Of a DNA stretch of 64,000 nt, positions 1-64,000 are shown piece by piece. The position numbers were made by a program. Location of the stretch: positions 2,816,001-2,880,000 of the forward strand of contig CAXXJV010000001.1 in the NCBI GenBank assembly GCA_963663475.2, read 5' to 3'. This DNA is from Candidatus Cloacimonadales bacterium. GTDB lineage: Bacteria; Cloacimonadota; Cloacimonadia; Cloacimonadales; JAFGVF01. The stretch's first letter is position 1. Every line of letters begins with the position of its first letter.

Positions 1-3000
1 ACCTAATCCATTTTCATATTGTAAGTTTATCATTTTTCTACTCCTTAAACCGAATGGTGCAGTAGAACTTTGATGAAGAGTGCTAGATTCTTTTAGCAAA
101 AGTAAGTTACAGAATTTGAAGGCATATAATATATATATTCCTGAAAATTATGTAGCTTACTTTTGCAAAAGAAGATAGTGCTATTCGCAAAGGTCTACTG
201 CTTTATATGGGTTAAATTACATCTATAACAACAAAGAGTTTTTTTAGAATAGTTGTCAAGGAGATAATTACTTTTTTTAGATAAATTGTTTCTTAGTTGT
301 AAATTAGCCTAAAAAATGGTCTCTCTCTAAAGTAGAGTTGGTATAATTTAGTTCATGTGTTCAGTTTTTGTCTAAAAGAGAGGATGTCCATATCAGCAAA
401 ATCAATAATAATGTCGTCCTTCCAGGGCTAAGATAAATCTTGGATTATGTATACAGGGTCTACCGAACCTGACTATCAAATGACATCCCTTCGGGATTTA
501 TTGATTCTCCAATAATAAATTCGATTCTCTCCAAAGTAGAGAGGTTTTTTGAAAAAAATAAAAAAAAGTTTAAATATAGAAAGTACTAAAGAAAACACTT
601 GCTCAGAGTCAAATAAATGCGTGCCTATTTATGGTCATAGAAAAAATGATTTGTGAAATTAGAACTATTTCTGGTTAATTAGTGTAAAGAATCTTCTTTT
701 CTTTTCACATTTATTGCATTTCCCTCACTACTTTGAAGAGAGCCTTAAAATCTTATAACATTTCTCAAAAATAATACAGTAGATTTTTGATAATAGCTGA
801 ATATTGTCTAAAAACCTACTGCAAGATTGGTTTTAAGCTTGATTGAAATATTTATTAAATTTATTCTTGACTTTCTAAATTTTTAAGCCCCTTAGCTACG
901 AAGATTAAGGCAAGTCCTAAAAGGATAAGAGAAATTTGTTTACCTGAAGAAGTAACGATATTATCCCACATAGTAGATTTAAGTTCTGTTAGACCTTTTT
1001 CGTATTCTGTTTCAAGTTCAACGCTATAAGAAGCAATAGTAGAGTCTGAGAGACTTTCTAAATACATAAGGTCTTCGGCAGATAATTCTTCAGTACCAAT
1101 ACCTTGCTTATAGTTTAGAGTTTGTTGGATCATTTCTTTACTTTGTTCATATTGATTTTTATATGAAGCTTTTTCTAAATTATAGGCATCGACATCACCT
1201 TTAATAGATGTAAAAGTCAGGAATACTCCTAAAAGAAGTGCAATTAACCCGATTGAGTTTACTACATTTGAGTAAGTGTTTCTTTTCATTTTTATAGCTC
1301 CTAGTTATTATTTGCAATTAAGGAAGCACCAAGTGCTCCAGTTATTATTGGGGTTTGGTAAGTATATATTGGTACTTGTAACAAATCTTCCAATATAATT
1401 TTCATGGATTTATTAAAAGAGACACCTCCTGTGAAAGCCACAGGTGTCTGCCAGTTTAAAGAATGGACTTGATTAATAATTCTTTTAGCAATAGACTTAT
1501 GAACAGCTTTTATAATCGTATTGCGAGAATAGCCTTTAGCTATCATGCCAATTATTTCTGATTCAGCAAAGACTACACAGGTTGAATCAATATCAATTTC
1601 AGTTTCTGCATGGAAAGCAAGATCAGACAATTCATCTACAGAAGTTTCAAGTATAGTAGCTACTACTTCCAAGAATCTGCCTGTTCCAGCAGCACATTTA
1701 TCATTCATAACGAAATCAATTACTTTATTATTTTCGTCTAAGGTAATGACTTTAGAATCTTGTCCTCCTATATCGATGACAGTTCTAGTTTCTGGATTCA
1801 GAAAGGATATGCCACGAGCGTGACAGATGATTTCAGAAGATATTTTATCTCTAAAGTCTACTAATTTCCTACCATAACCTGTTGATACGACTCTTTCAAC
1901 TTTATCTAGCTTATGTTTCTTTAAGATATTATCATAGAGTTTTTGGGCAGTAAGCTTTGGAGTTACTCCAGTAGCAGTATATTTCCAATCAATAATTTTA
2001 TTTTTTGAATGATCAAAGAGGACTATTTTACTGGTAGTTGAGCCGACATCAATTCCTATTGTAAGCATATCTTATTACCTATAGATTTGAGTATAAAGGT
2101 TATTGCTAGTAAAGTAAGTTTCAGCTATTTGAGCAATATCATCAAATGAGACCTCTTGTAGTCGTTTTTCTCTATTAAGATAAAAGTCATAGCTATAACC
2201 CAAAGAGCTAAGGATACCTAAGGAGCTGGCTTGAGAAGCCACACTTTCATCGTCAAGTAAACGCTGTCCATTGATAAAGTTTTTAGTAAGTTCCATTTCT
2301 TCTTTAGTAACATTATTTTTAATAATATCCTTCATTATCTTTTTCATTGAAGCTATAGCTTGTTCTTCCCTATTCCTATCAACAATGGCATAGTTAGCAA
2401 AGAAACCAACTTCAGAAAGGGCTGTAAAGTCAAAACCTACACTGTAGGCAAGGCCGAGTTTCTCTCTTAGTTCATTAAAGAGACGAGAAGAAATCTCCCC
2501 TCCGATAATTTGGGATAAAACGTGGAAGGCAACATTAAGTCTGTAATCATTGGCATTACAGGCGAAGCCACCTATATGAATAATAGATTGGTCATTATCA
2601 TAATCAAAGATATGTCTCTTTTTAGAAGGTGGAGTATAGATGACTTTTTCCTCTACCTGAGAATGATAAGAAGTAAAATTAAAAGTATTTTCAACAGTTC
2701 TAATAATATTATCAAAGTGAATATCCCCAATCACAACTAAGCTCATTTGAGATAAGTCTAAGAATTCTTTATGCCAAGAATTAATTCTCTTTCTTGTAAT
2801 TTTAGTTACATCAGATAATTCACCAGTTTTATTGATAAGATTAGAATTTCTTCCAAACAAGAATTGGTTAAATTTCTTTACTGCATCTTTTGTAGGGAAG
2901 TCATGAATTCTTCTCAAGTTTGATCTGACAGATTGTTTAATATTATGCAAATGATGAATAGGAAATTGAGGTTCTCTGATTAAGTCTGCAATTAGTTGCA

Positions 3001-63000: not shown

Positions 63001-64000
63001 CACCAATACCATCTATTTTATGGCCAAGACTATCAAACTGAACAGTTAGAGAATCTCCACTTAGAACAGAATAATTATCAAAACCAGTCCAAACTCCCAG
63101 TACATACTTACCATTCATACCAATAAACCACGCATCTCTATAATCATCAGTAGTACCAGTTTTACCAGCTGACACCCAAGGATAGACAGCTCTATTTTCA
63201 GGACTATGGAATGAGGATCCAGCTGTTCCACCAGGCTTTGTAACTGATTTCATAAGGTCAGCCATAATATAAGCTACATCAGGTTCACAGACATGGATAG
63301 TTTCGGTAGTAGATGATTGGAGTAGATTTCCGTATTTATCATAAACACGGTCAATAAAGATAGGTTTCACCCTTCTACCTTGATTTGGGAAGGCAGTATA
63401 GGCAGTTATCATATCAATAGGTTTAAGTTCTGGGGTTCCTAAAGCAGAAGAATAATAAGGAGGTACTTTTATTCCGAATTTATCAGCTTTTTTAGCAACA
63501 GTATTTTTACCAATATCATACATTGTTTTAACTGCATAAATATTAAAGGAGTTTTTTAAAGCCTTTCTGAGTGTAATATAACCACCTTGAGTTTTGGTAT
63601 AGTTCAAAGGACGATATAAATATTTTCTTTCTAGTTTTTTTAAGGAATCAACATAAGTAGAATCAGCTAATAAAGAGTCTGGTGCATCTTCAAGGTGAGG
63701 TATTTTATCCCAACCAAACATTCTGATTCTAAAATCATCATCCCTAATAACAGTGGAGGCAGTATAGCCATTCTCAATAGCTGCAGTATAAATTATTGGT
63801 TTAATTGCAGACCCAACCTGTCTTCTTGATTGCATGATTCTATTTAGTTTAGAATGTTTGAAGTTTCTTCCACCTAGCATAGTTTTAACATGGCCTGTAT
63901 GGGCATCTAAGAGGAAGATACCTCCTTGCAGATAAGGCGTTTTTATATCTGTTGTATCAGGGTCAAAATCTGAATACTTGATTTCGTAGCCAAGTTCATT

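What a model noticed while it worked through the whole genome (the two positions that open the first line are those of the whole stretch)
1..64000. A 95-copy perfect palindrome (HP-A) that keeps a 12-kb exclusion zone
A 57-99 nt perfect palindrome (arm CTTCCTTTACAGTCTTTCGATGAAA, 7-nt loop, reverse arm) occurs 94 times, 81 on C1 and 13 on C2, plus one degenerate copy. All copies are intergenic. Copies avoid each other: only 1 of 93 gaps is under 12 kb where about 27 are expected, while the other repeat families of the same genome scatter at random. The element is a burst special to this species. The cause of the spacing (target immunity or selection) is not known.
Evidence so far: Copies, compensatory arm variants and complementary outer stems: calls 14-17. 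One hairpin at -41.1 kcal/mol, z -15.5: call 157. The profile search adds one degenerate copy at C2:352266: call 45. Spacing: CV 0.52, minimum 12,250 bp, 0 of 5,000 simulations under each of two null models. With 95 copies, 1 of 93 gaps under 12 kb against 27.1 (minimum 14) in 10,000 simulations. Restricted to the 358 repeat-bearing intergenic regions: 28.3, minimum 15. Controls: REP-B with 81 copies, CV 1.49, 35 of 79 gaps under 12 kb; families with 44-133 loci, CV 0.98-1.25. Exact core: 92 copies in G000, 0 in 39 of 40 relatives, 1 in G004; 1 other record among GTDB species genomes. Empty orthologous site in G006 The finding spans contig positions 25842 to 2885122; this window holds only 2816001 to 2880000 of it. 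[...]
(Added by a program. Inside this text positions count along the whole contig: contig position 2,816,001 is position 1 of the stretch shown here. "Call 12" and the like, gene names such as g00115 and contig names such as C1 are that model's own, and its searches are not shown. The text may have been shortened before it was handed on; [...] marks where a part breaks off. The agent that wrote the report below was given it as the finding of a first reader that could run no searches.)

Follow-up and report, generated by a model that had tools for sequence, protein, structure and literature searches.

The report
Self-spacing hairpin repeat in one bacterium
One bacterial genome carries 94 almost identical hairpin-forming DNA repeats that never lie closer than 12 kb to each other, a territorial spacing not described for such repeats, and its cause is still open.

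Summary
The genome (2.90 + 0.40 Mb, 33% GC, Cloacimonadales) has 94 intact HP-A copies and one decayed copy. Only one copy lies in this window, at 55266-55344. No gap is under 12,250 bp, against about 27 expected. Spacing is also more regular than a plain 12-kb exclusion: 55 of 94 gaps are 20-40 kb.

HP-A is a 79-nt palindrome with 25-nt near-invariant inner arms, 11-nt variable but co-varying outer arms, and a 7-nt GTCCNNN loop that flips. Some copies carry private "wings". Loop and wing subfamilies show it multiplied as a unit.

It has no target duplication, no parent IS and no GT(A/G)G head. It is not a terminator, not a rearrangement hotspot and not a known RNA. The nearest complete congener has no palindrome family. 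In 232 phylum genomes the core occurs only here and once in one congener.

My best reading, at 0.4, is a REPIN-like selfish hairpin replicator whose intact copies block insertion nearby, as in target immunity. No enzyme is identified. Resident Mu-like prophages encode a transposase and an AAA ATPase, but their ends are unlike HP-A and one sits about 100 nt from a copy.

My last script timed out, so the intergenic null, control-family statistics and exclusion simulations were not re-run.

The parts
55277..55333 (.). HP-A core of the only copy in the window: 25-nt arm, 7-nt loop ATCCCAC, 25-nt reverse arm (ACACTC variant; right arm ends GAATG instead of GGAAG)
   Evidence: 21-bp perfect stem in the DNA fold, -22.8 kcal/mol, z -9.6
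55266..55276 (.). left outer arm CATCCTTATTC (family consensus CATCC-TTAAT-C)
55334..55344 (.). right outer arm, degenerate (AAATAAGTATC); only 6 outer pairs form
55228..55265 (.). left wing (S type), shared with copies C1:94082 and C1:2618668 and with the single copy of congener G004
55345..55428 (+). right wing (P type): conserved AT-rich module with two GGACC words between HP-A and the p169 gene, present at all 7 p169 loci; promoter role is inferred only
   Evidence: one search found one weak sigma-70-like match in it, no more than in shuffles
55532..56041 (+). p169: small basic orphan protein, one of 7 paralogs that all lie 166-416 nt from an HP-A copy
54996..55200 (.). copy of another, genus-wide 120-185 nt repeat family (control family that is not spaced)
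56092..56296 (.). second copy of that other family, 1,096 nt from the first
1..55265 (.). HP-A-free stretch: most of the 75,092-bp gap between copies C1:2796213 and C1:2871305. It holds ordinary metabolic and secreted-protein genes and no prophage

Best explanation
HP-A is a non-autonomous, hairpin-forming mobile repeat that works like a REPIN. It is a 79-nt palindrome, sometimes with 50-100 nt wings, that has been copied as a unit around both replicons.

Only elements with an intact 25-nt inner arm sequence and a pairable outer stem can be copied. Along the genealogy of copies the core therefore stays fixed while outer arms and wings drift with compensatory changes.

An intact copy makes the DNA around it a poor target for a new copy. 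The exclusion is complete to about 12 kb and fades by about 20-30 kb. The genome has filled to roughly one copy per 20-40 kb on both replicons. A copy that decays loses this effect and can be replaced nearby.

Shown: the anatomy, the subfamilies, the restriction to this lineage and the spacing. Inferred: mobility through a single-strand hairpin, the cis-acting exclusion at insertion, and turnover.
For: Copy-and-paste as a unit.
- Wings X, Y and Z occur almost only beside HP-A (17/17, 14/16, 9/10) and not in G006.
- In 21 of the 22 copies that bear one of these wings, the loop is GTCCCAG (19), GTCCGTG (1) or GTCAGGA (1).
- 101 of 188 half flanks are unique sequence.

Selection on the core and on outer pairing.
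- Inner-arm columns are invariant apart from 2 polymorphic positions. Outer columns co-vary above chance.
- 25 of 94 outer stems are perfect, with 16 different sequences.
- In 15 Y-wing copies the core has 2 changes in 750 nt, while the wing varies at many columns.
- The outer arms are not pre-existing targets: CATCC-N8-16-GGATG occurs once in the genome.

Hairpin type rather than cut-and-paste. There is no target duplication at any symmetric boundary. No arm-like 12-mer sits at an IS end.

Self-exclusion. 0 of 94 gaps are under 12 kb against 26.8 expected. The density is similar on the two replicons (35.7 and 31.0 kb per copy). Hand count: gaps of 12-20, 20-30, 30-40, 40-50 and over 50 kb number 16, 29, 26, 8 and 15. 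A 12.25-kb hard exclusion plus exponential gives 27, 24, 15, 10 and 18 (chi-square about 14).

Large gaps. 5 of the 8 gaps over 65 kb hold prophage DNA.

Turnover. The only decayed copy is the one that lies 1.1 kb from an intact copy.

Scale. Mu cis-immunity is strongest at about 5 kb and decays between 5 and 25 kb (PMC7350765, passages read).

Insertions, not rearrangements. 71 of 94 copies lie between genes that are adjacent and colinear in G006, which has no HP-A.
Against: - No enzyme is identified.
- Target immunity is known only for Mu, Tn7 and Tn3-type elements that use a transposase plus an ATPase or their terminal repeats (PMC7350765, passages). It is not known for hairpin or Y1-type elements.
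- The Mu-like prophage ends (GAGAAA..TTGCRGAC) are unlike the HP-A arm. Prophage A inserted about 64 nt from an HP-A outer arm.
- RAYT-like genes have their own flanking repeats. Close orthologues exist in G001 and G003, which have no HP-A.
- No insertion edge could be defined, because intergenic DNA of the nearest species does not align.
- No presence/absence polymorphism or excision product was seen. Only contigs were available.
- The near absence of dead copies (1 of 95) needs fast removal, or points to host-level selection.
- The G004 single copy has the same core and 24 identical flank letters beside a gene that is only 78% identical. This fits long purifying selection as well as recent arrival.
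- The intergenic null and the exclusion simulations were not obtained.
Confidence: 0.4

Rival explanations
1. Host-selected spaced sites. The core is a sequence-specific binding site, as duplex or as an extruded cruciform, for a host protein that organises the chromosome in units of 20-40 kb. Examples would be a nucleoid protein, a gyrase-type site like BIME-2, or a loop anchor. Selection keeps one intact site per unit and removes or lets decay a second one nearby.
For: - The core is near invariant while the adjoining outer arms and wings vary.
- The spacing has a mode at 20-40 kb rather than a mere minimum, and the density is equal on both replicons (hand count).
- The one decayed copy is the redundant one.
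- The G004 single copy keeps an identical core beside a 78%-identical gene.
- Placement ignores transcription context: 28 divergent, 45 tandem and 21 convergent, roughly in proportion to intergenic length.
- All 7 genes of a small basic orphan protein family sit beside copies.
Against: - The nearest complete congener G006 has no repeated long palindrome at all. 230 of 232 phylum genomes lack the core. Any such function is therefore new and dispensable in relatives.
- Extra sites would be expected to be tolerated, yet 0 close pairs are seen against 27 expected.
- No binding protein is known. p169 has no recognisable fold or family and exists in congeners without HP-A.
Confidence: 0.27
2. Purging after insertion. 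Copies land at random, but two identical palindromes close together are unstable through deletion, inversion or breakage between them. Close pairs are then lost or selected against.
For: - HP-A copies share 57-79 nt of perfect identity. The other abundant family is only about 75-93% alike and tolerates close neighbours.
- The decayed copy is tolerated 1.1 kb from an intact one.
Against: - Recombination between repeats has no known sharp dependence on distance out to 12 kb (own knowledge).
- Deletion of 12 kb, about 11 genes at 88% coding density, would rarely be viable. Loss can therefore clear only very close pairs.
- The piling up of gaps at 20-40 kb and the thin tail are not predicted (hand count).
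- HP-A intervals are not enriched for synteny breakpoints: 23 of 94, equal to or below other intervals of the same length in 6 of 7 length classes (above in the longest, 6/6 against 3/5).
Confidence: 0.1
3. Targeting of features that are themselves spaced. HP-A inserts only at some pre-existing chromosomal feature, such as domain barriers or pause sites, that already occurs every 20-40 kb. The copies do not interact.
For: Spacing and equal density on two replicons. 71 of 94 sites are in conserved gene neighbourhoods.
Against: - No shared sequence lies outside the element: information falls to background beyond about 48 nt from the centre and 101 of 188 flanks are unique.
- No empty palindromic target sites exist.
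- There is no bias for gene orientation.
- Such spaced features are not known (own knowledge).
Confidence: 0.08
4. Artefact of assembly or library, such as adapter or chimera hairpins placed at read-length intervals.
For: The family is almost confined to one assembly, and the minimum spacing is of the order of a long read.
Against: - Copies carry variable, complementary outer arms, wings and subfamilies.
- One copy with the same core stands in another species' chromosome.
- Contigs of a run from another study (X9, strain about 1% different) end at 55295 and start at 55292, inside the hairpin, with the right flanks on both sides.
- Copies avoid coding sequence.
Confidence: 0.02

Closest known systems
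REPINs (REP doublets forming hairpins) of Pseudomonas, mobilised by RAYT transposases
   Same: Intergenic, about 100 copies, and the whole unit forms one long hairpin. Some blocks are highly conserved next to less conserved parts that keep pairing by compensatory changes. The repeat is lineage-specific. It is interpreted as a replicator under selection for copying (PMC3116915, passages read).
   Different: - The layout is inverted: in HP-A the conserved block is at the centre and the variable paired part is outside.
- HP-A arms are AT-rich, and 25 of 94 copies are perfect palindromes.
- No RAYT gene is flanked by HP-A.
- REPIN doublets were reported as randomly distributed in extragenic space with some clusters (PMC3116915, abstract and passages). 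HP-A keeps at least 12 kb between copies.
REP / BIME elements of enterobacteria
   Same: Palindromic intergenic repeats set in a mosaic of other short modules. Some are protein-binding sites for IHF and gyrase (PMC2817692, passages).
   Different: REPs have a GT(A/G)G head and a GC-rich imperfect palindrome of about 20-35 nt, flank the rayt gene and are mostly clustered (PMC2817692, passages). HP-A meets none of these.
Target (cis-) immunity of Mu, Tn7 and Tn3-family transposons
   Same: A resident copy makes nearby DNA a poor target. For Mu in vivo the effect is strongest at about 5 kb and decays between 5 and 25 kb (PMC7350765, passages), which is the scale of the HP-A zone.
   Different: The known cases need a transposase bound to element ends plus an ATPase, or the Tn3 terminal repeats, and they make target duplications. 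HP-A has no duplication and no end motifs of the resident Mu-like phages. Immunity has not, to my knowledge, been reported for a miniature element. Searches found no such paper.
MITEs such as Correia elements or Tn3-derived TIMEs (recalled, not read)
   Same: Short non-autonomous repeats with inverted ends, intergenic, sometimes carrying promoters.
   Different: MITEs have terminal inverted repeats matching a parent IS and a target duplication. Neither is found here.

Membership tests
REP (RAYT-associated repetitive extragenic palindrome) | GT(A/G)G head followed by a GC-rich imperfect palindrome (PMC2817692) | tested here: not met
   The consensus half-site is CATCC-TTAAT-C-CTTCCTTTACAGTCTTTCGATGAAA, which is AT-rich. 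Positions outside CATCC carry little information. A GTAG word precedes CATCC only in some wings.
REP (RAYT-associated repetitive extragenic palindrome) | the rayt gene is flanked by two of the repeats in inverted orientation | tested here: not met
   The Y1_Tnp genes at C1:2619168 and C1:1464139 are flanked by their own 69-nt inverted repeats. HP-A lies on one side only, 0.5 and 1.2 kb away. Orthologues at 85-93% identity occur in G001 and G003, which have no HP-A.
REPIN | two inverted REPs with a spacer forming one long hairpin, with compensatory changes | tested here: inconclusive
   A long hairpin and compensatory outer arms are present. However, the unit is a single palindrome with a 7-nt loop, not a doublet of REPs.
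REPIN | a cognate single-copy RAYT | tested here: not met
   No RAYT is linked to HP-A by flanking repeats or by co-occurrence.
MITE | target site duplication | tested here: not met
   There is no excess of direct repeats of 2-9 nt at any symmetric boundary 26-65 nt from the centre, apart from the palindromic TTAA inside the arms.
MITE | terminal repeats shared with a parent IS in the genome | tested here: not met
   No clustered arm 12-mers occur outside the copies. nhmmer finds nothing else.
Transposon with target immunity (Mu/Tn7/Tn3 type) | new insertions are excluded near a resident copy | tested here: inconclusive
   The standing pattern fits (0 of 94 gaps under 12 kb), but no insertion events were observed.
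Transposon with target immunity (Mu/Tn7/Tn3 type) | element ends bind a transposase that acts with a target-selecting ATPase | tested here: not met
   Mu-like transposase/ATPase pairs and IS21 IstA/IstB pairs are encoded. The phage end motifs differ from the HP-A arm, and a prophage lies about 100 nt from the centre of a copy.
Intrinsic terminator | GC-rich stem followed by a T run, placed at 3' ends of genes | tested here: not met
   The window copy is not called as a terminator and no T run follows the stem. 28 of 94 copies lie between divergent genes.
Known RNA family (Rfam 15) | score at or above the family's gathering threshold | tested here: not met
   There were 0 matches in the window at gathering thresholds. 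Only sub-threshold generic hairpin (miRNA precursor) matches were found, best 35.7 bits against a threshold of 100.
Site-specific recombination site (lox/dif-like: inverted arms round an asymmetric spacer) | recombination between copies, leaving rearrangement joints at copies | tested here: not met
   23 of 94 HP-A intervals are synteny breakpoints against G006. The share is equal to or below that of other intervals of the same length in 6 of 7 length classes, and above it in the longest (6/6 against 3/5).

The most novel reading that the evidence does not exclude
HP-A is a newly domesticated chromosome-organising site. A hairpin repeat spread until each 20-40 kb of both replicons holds exactly one intact copy. 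The cores are bound by a lineage-specific small basic protein, with the co-amplified p169 family as the candidate, to set loop or supercoil domains. The territorial spacing is then the footprint of that domain size. This would be a bacterial case of a selfish repeat turned into a regularly spaced architectural element within one species.
Probability: 0.12. Interest if true: 0.9.

Novelty: new variant of a known kind. Interest (0 to 1): 0.68.

Why it matters
Intergenic palindromic repeats (REP, REPIN, MITE) are common. Where their placement was tested, they were reported as random or clustered (PMC3116915, PMC2817692). A family whose copies keep a territory of at least 12 kb, with a preferred distance of 20-40 kb on two replicons, points to one of two things. 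Either a miniature element has a form of target immunity with no known machinery, or a repeat is being used to mark out chromosome units. Both can be tested directly in one organism, because relatives without the family share the gene order at 71 of the 94 sites and can serve as a natural control. The finding also shows that spacing statistics can pick out repeats with cis-interactions from sequence alone.

Tried and rejected
1. Rearrangement hotspot or recombination site. I fetched G006 (C1 whole, C2 300 of 485 kb) and found 1,786 reciprocal best hits and 174 breakpoints in 1,784 adjacencies. HP-A intervals are not enriched.

2. Empty-site definition. 71 colinear sites exist, but their intergenic DNA is too diverged to place insertion edges.

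3. Outer arms as pre-existing palindromic targets. CATCC-N8-16-GGATG occurs once in the genome, against 27 for the reversed control.

4. Link of loop orientation to replication direction. Fisher p = 0.067 on C1, so not taken further. The GC-skew minimum falls in copy C1:613260, but a palindrome with a C-rich left arm makes a local minimum by construction.

5. RAYT as mobiliser. Rejected on flanking repeats and distribution.

6. Mu-like prophage machinery as mobiliser or source of immunity. The end motifs are unlike HP-A, and a prophage is inserted next to a copy.

7. IS parent. None found.

8. p169. No Pfam match. PDB sequence matches only at E of 0.03 or more. The AlphaFold model has pLDDT 69, and Foldseek against the PDB gave nothing at E up to 0.001.

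9. Orthologous mnmE-downstream site in G006. No HP-A-like palindrome. Loci for the other four genomes could not be cut.

10. Public collections. No match in JGI metagenome contigs (full core and single arm), IMG/VR, INPHARED phages or PLSDB plasmids. Short-read contigs break at such palindromes, so absence there is weak evidence.

11. Reads. Only contigs were on hand, so neither loop flipping nor presence/absence could be read. Parts of the stretch without cover say nothing.

12. The last script timed out and printed nothing. It was to give the intergenic-restricted null, spacing of control families, prophage-corrected gaps, wing and core identities, sharing of loop type between neighbours, and sequential-insertion simulations. 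Only the wing and core comparison was recovered another way.

14. Literature. Searches found no paper on over-dispersed palindromic repeats, on immunity of miniature elements, or on repeats in Cloacimonadota. Subscription journals are not covered.
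Full report
**What is in the window and in the genome**

The window is C1:2816001-2880000 of a two-replicon genome of 2,895,421 + 403,210 bp at 33% GC. 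It holds a single HP-A copy, with the core at 55277-55333 and outer arms at 55266-55276 and 55334-55344. This copy is atypical: ACACTC arm variant, loop ATCCCAC and a decayed right outer arm. It still folds as DNA at -22.8 kcal/mol, z -9.6. The rest of the window up to 55 kb is HP-A-free and encodes ordinary genes.

Genome-wide I find 94 intact copies, 81 on C1 and 13 on C2. There is one decayed copy at C2:352266-352342, which lies 1.1 kb from an intact one. A maximally sensitive profile search found no other remnant.

**Spacing**

The 94 circular gaps have mean 35.1 kb, CV 0.523 and minimum 12,250 bp. In 5,000 uniform simulations the number of gaps under 12 kb averaged 26.8 (minimum 13), and the lowest CV was 0.706.

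Counting the gaps listed by hand gives this table. The two right-hand columns are my arithmetic, not a tool result.

| Gap (kb) | Observed | Exponential, same mean | 12.25-kb hard exclusion + exponential |
|---|---|---|---|
| under 12 | 0 | 27 | - |
| 12-20 | 16 | 14 | 27 |
| 20-30 | 29 | 13 | 24 |
| 30-40 | 26 | 10 | 15 |
| 40-50 | 8 | 7.5 | 10 |
| 50 and over | 15 | 23 | 18 |

Chi-square against the hard-exclusion model is about 14. There is therefore a preferred distance of 20-40 kb, not only a forbidden zone. For hard rods, CV = 1 - d/mean, so the observed CV corresponds to an effective exclusion of about 17 kb.

Of the 8 gaps over 65 kb, 5 contain prophage DNA. Before those insertions the pattern was probably tighter. 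The 75-kb gap that covers this window contains no prophage in the part I examined.

Another repeat family of 120-185 nt, which is genus-wide, has copies 1,096, 2,360 and 2,916 nt apart inside this window. It has many close pairs in the list.

My numeric re-run of the intergenic null and of the control families failed.

**Anatomy**

Each half reads, from the outside in, CATCC-TTAAT-C then CTTCCTTTACAGTCTTTCGATGAAA.

- **Inner arms.** The 25-nt inner arm is invariant except for two polymorphic positions (ACAG, ACAC, ACGG variants, mostly matched on the other arm) and 13 other changes in 188 arms.
- **Outer arms.** The 11-nt outer arm matches its consensus at about 81% of positions, with 82 distinct versions among 188. 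The two sides of a copy co-vary above chance. 25 copies are perfect, using 16 different sequences.
- **Limit of pairing.** Beyond 39 nt from the centre pairing is at chance.
- **Loop.** The loop is GTCC plus three variable letters. It is found in both orientations (54, 38, and 2 odd), independently of the flanks. This is what inversion between the arms would give.
- **Wings.** About half of the flanks (101 of 188) are unique DNA. The rest are wings of a few types. Types X, Y and Z occur almost only beside HP-A (17/17, 14/16, 9/10) and not in G006. 19 of the 22 copies that bear one of them have the loop GTCCCAG.
- **Core against wing.** In 15 Y-wing copies the 50 core letters show 2 changes in 750, while the wing varies at many columns.
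- **No empty targets.** There are no empty CATCC...GGATG sites, so the outer arms belong to the element.

Together this shows a family that was copied as whole units in several lineages. There is strong constraint on the core sequence and on outer pairing.

**What it is not**

- No target duplication.
- No parent IS or solo arms.
- No GT(A/G)G head, and no flanking of a rayt gene.
- Not a terminator.
- No Rfam family.
- Placement is proportional to intergenic length whatever the gene orientation.
- Not a rearrangement site. Against G006 there are 1,786 reciprocal best hits with median 88% amino-acid identity. 23 of 94 HP-A intervals are breakpoints, no more than length-matched intervals in 6 of 7 length classes (the longest is the exception, 6/6 against 3/5). 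71 lie between adjacent colinear orthologues.

**Distribution**

- 0 copies in 39 of 40 relatives, and 1 in G004.
- 2 of 232 phylum genomes, counting G000.
- One other GTDB record, a Cloacimonadales MAG chromosome that is G004.
- Nothing in the JGI metagenome contigs, IMG/VR, phage or plasmid collections.
- G006, the nearest species (about 80-84% nucleotide identity in genes), has only 20 unrelated palindromes with arms of 16 nt or more. G000 has 113, of which 94 are HP-A. The genus has no general equivalent.
- The G004 copy has 33-nt perfect arms, an identical core and 24 identical letters of right flank. It lies downstream of mnmE, as does G000 copy C1:1248767, although the gene itself is 78% identical.
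- Contigs of a run from a different study (X9), from a strain about 1% different, stop and restart inside the window's hairpin with the correct flanks. The site is therefore real and shared within the species.

**Candidate machinery**

The genome encodes the following:

- Y1 (RAYT-like) transposases;
- 15 IS21 copies with IstB ATPases;
- 8 IS3-like elements;
- Mu-like transposable prophages, each with a 675-919 aa transposase and a 237-262 aa AAA ATPase.

Prophages A and B have 5-bp target duplications (AAAAT and CTTCA) and ends with repeated GAGAAA..TTGCRGAC motifs. These motifs are unlike the HP-A arm. Prophage A begins about 64 nt from the outer arm of copy C1:2678543, so HP-A neither derives from these phages nor repels them.

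The RAYT-like genes carry their own 63-109 nt inverted repeats, and they occur at 85-93% identity in congeners without HP-A. No enzyme is therefore linked to HP-A.

The only gene family tied to it is p169, a small basic orphan protein. All 7 paralogs lie 166-416 nt from a copy, each congener has one gene, and there is no family or fold match.

**Reading**

The anatomy matches the logic described for REPINs: conserved blocks plus a compensating hairpin, read as selection on a replicative unit (PMC3116915, passages). The layout differs and there is no cognate RAYT. REPIN doublets were reported as random in extragenic space, and REPs as mostly clustered (PMC3116915; PMC2817692, passages).

A total lack of close pairs needs an active exclusion. 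The simplest one is a cis effect of an intact copy on nearby insertion. Its range is that of Mu cis-immunity, which is strongest near 5 kb and fades by 25 kb (PMC7350765, passages). With turnover, this also explains four things: the fixed core, the varied outer arms, the equal density on both replicons, and the one dead copy with a live neighbour. I give it 0.4.

A host function that needs one site per 20-40 kb explains the same facts, and it explains the conserved single copy in G004 better. It does less well on the absence of any equivalent in relatives and on the absolute lack of close pairs. I give it 0.27.

Purging of close pairs by recombination (0.1) does not predict a 12-kb limit or the peak. 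Targeting of pre-spaced features gets 0.08 and artefact 0.02.

**Limits**

- No insertion event, excision product or polymorphism was seen.
- The enzyme is unknown.
- Insertion edges are undefined.
- 12 ORF overlaps were not inspected.
- C2 of G006 is only partly covered, and the other congeners were not scanned for palindromes.
- The intergenic null, control statistics and simulations are missing.
- The bin expectations and prophage assignments are hand work on tool outputs.

Noticed in passing
G000 C1:2,678,646-2,710,913 and C1:140,569-173,1xx (outside the window): Two related Mu-like transposable prophages of about 32 kb, with late regions 96-98% identical. They have 5-bp target duplications (AAAAT, CTTCA) and ends carrying 3-4 GAGAAA..TTGCRGAC repeats. 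Each encodes a 910-919 aa rve/DDE_2-like transposase and a 251-262 aa AAA ATPase. A third early region lies at C1:1,925-1,931 kb. Prophage A starts about 64 nt from an HP-A outer arm.
   Followed up: partly
window 55532-56041 and G000 C1:1248148, 1463317, 2141828, 358895, 195825, C2:59530: p169 is a genus-specific small basic protein. G000 has 7 paralogs, each 166-416 nt from an HP-A copy behind a conserved AT-rich module with two GGACC words. Each of 6 congeners has one copy. It has no family, PDB or fold match, and its C-terminal part is repetitive and variable.
   Followed up: partly
G000 C1:1-23,120; C1:1,370,7xx-1,386,755; C2:4,850-10,648; C2:310,488-326,125: A second prophage-like gene set (terminase-like and tail-like genes) is present in 3-4 copies, all lying in larger-than-average HP-A gaps.
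   Followed up: no
G000 C1:2619168-2619635 and 1464139-1464585; L189, L190, L191: RAYT/IS200-like Y1 transposase genes flanked by their own 63-109 nt inverted repeats. G003 gave 9 matches to this protein (34-93% identical, three of them partial or with stop codons). The second G000 copy has an altered C-terminus.
   Followed up: partly
window 47-221, 19182-19262, 26986-27190, 29902-30106, 32291-32377, 54996-55200, 56092-56296: A genus-wide repeat family of 120-185 nt (more than 150 copies listed in G000, also many in G001-G006) that clusters at kilobase distances. It is a useful internal control for spacing.
   Followed up: partly
window 30215-32286 (-) and 22030-22938 (+): An RloB-like and AAA_21 (OLD/AbiEii-type) gene pair, probably a defence module, and a Xer-type tyrosine recombinase.
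   Followed up: no
window 40176-40303 and 40707-40860: Two short tandem arrays (2 x 64 nt and 3 x 51 nt) in the intergenic region upstream of the phosphoglucomutase-like gene.
   Followed up: no
G000 C1:613,260: The cumulative GC-skew minimum of C1 (613,269) falls inside an HP-A copy, and the maximum (2,218,349) lies about midway between two copies. dnaA is far away at 1,434,495. The coincidence at the minimum is partly forced by the C-rich left arm.
   Followed up: partly
L110:270-440 (G006), L006, L007, L009: A different, GC-richer REP-like family (AACTGGGA..GCGGATG..CATCCGC) is shared by congeners. It occurs downstream of mnmE in G006 and near the p169 orthologues.
   Followed up: no
G000 C1:196689-197708: A group II intron-type reverse transcriptase gene lies 1-2 kb from HP-A copy C1:195597. 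Five related copies exist in the genome.
   Followed up: no
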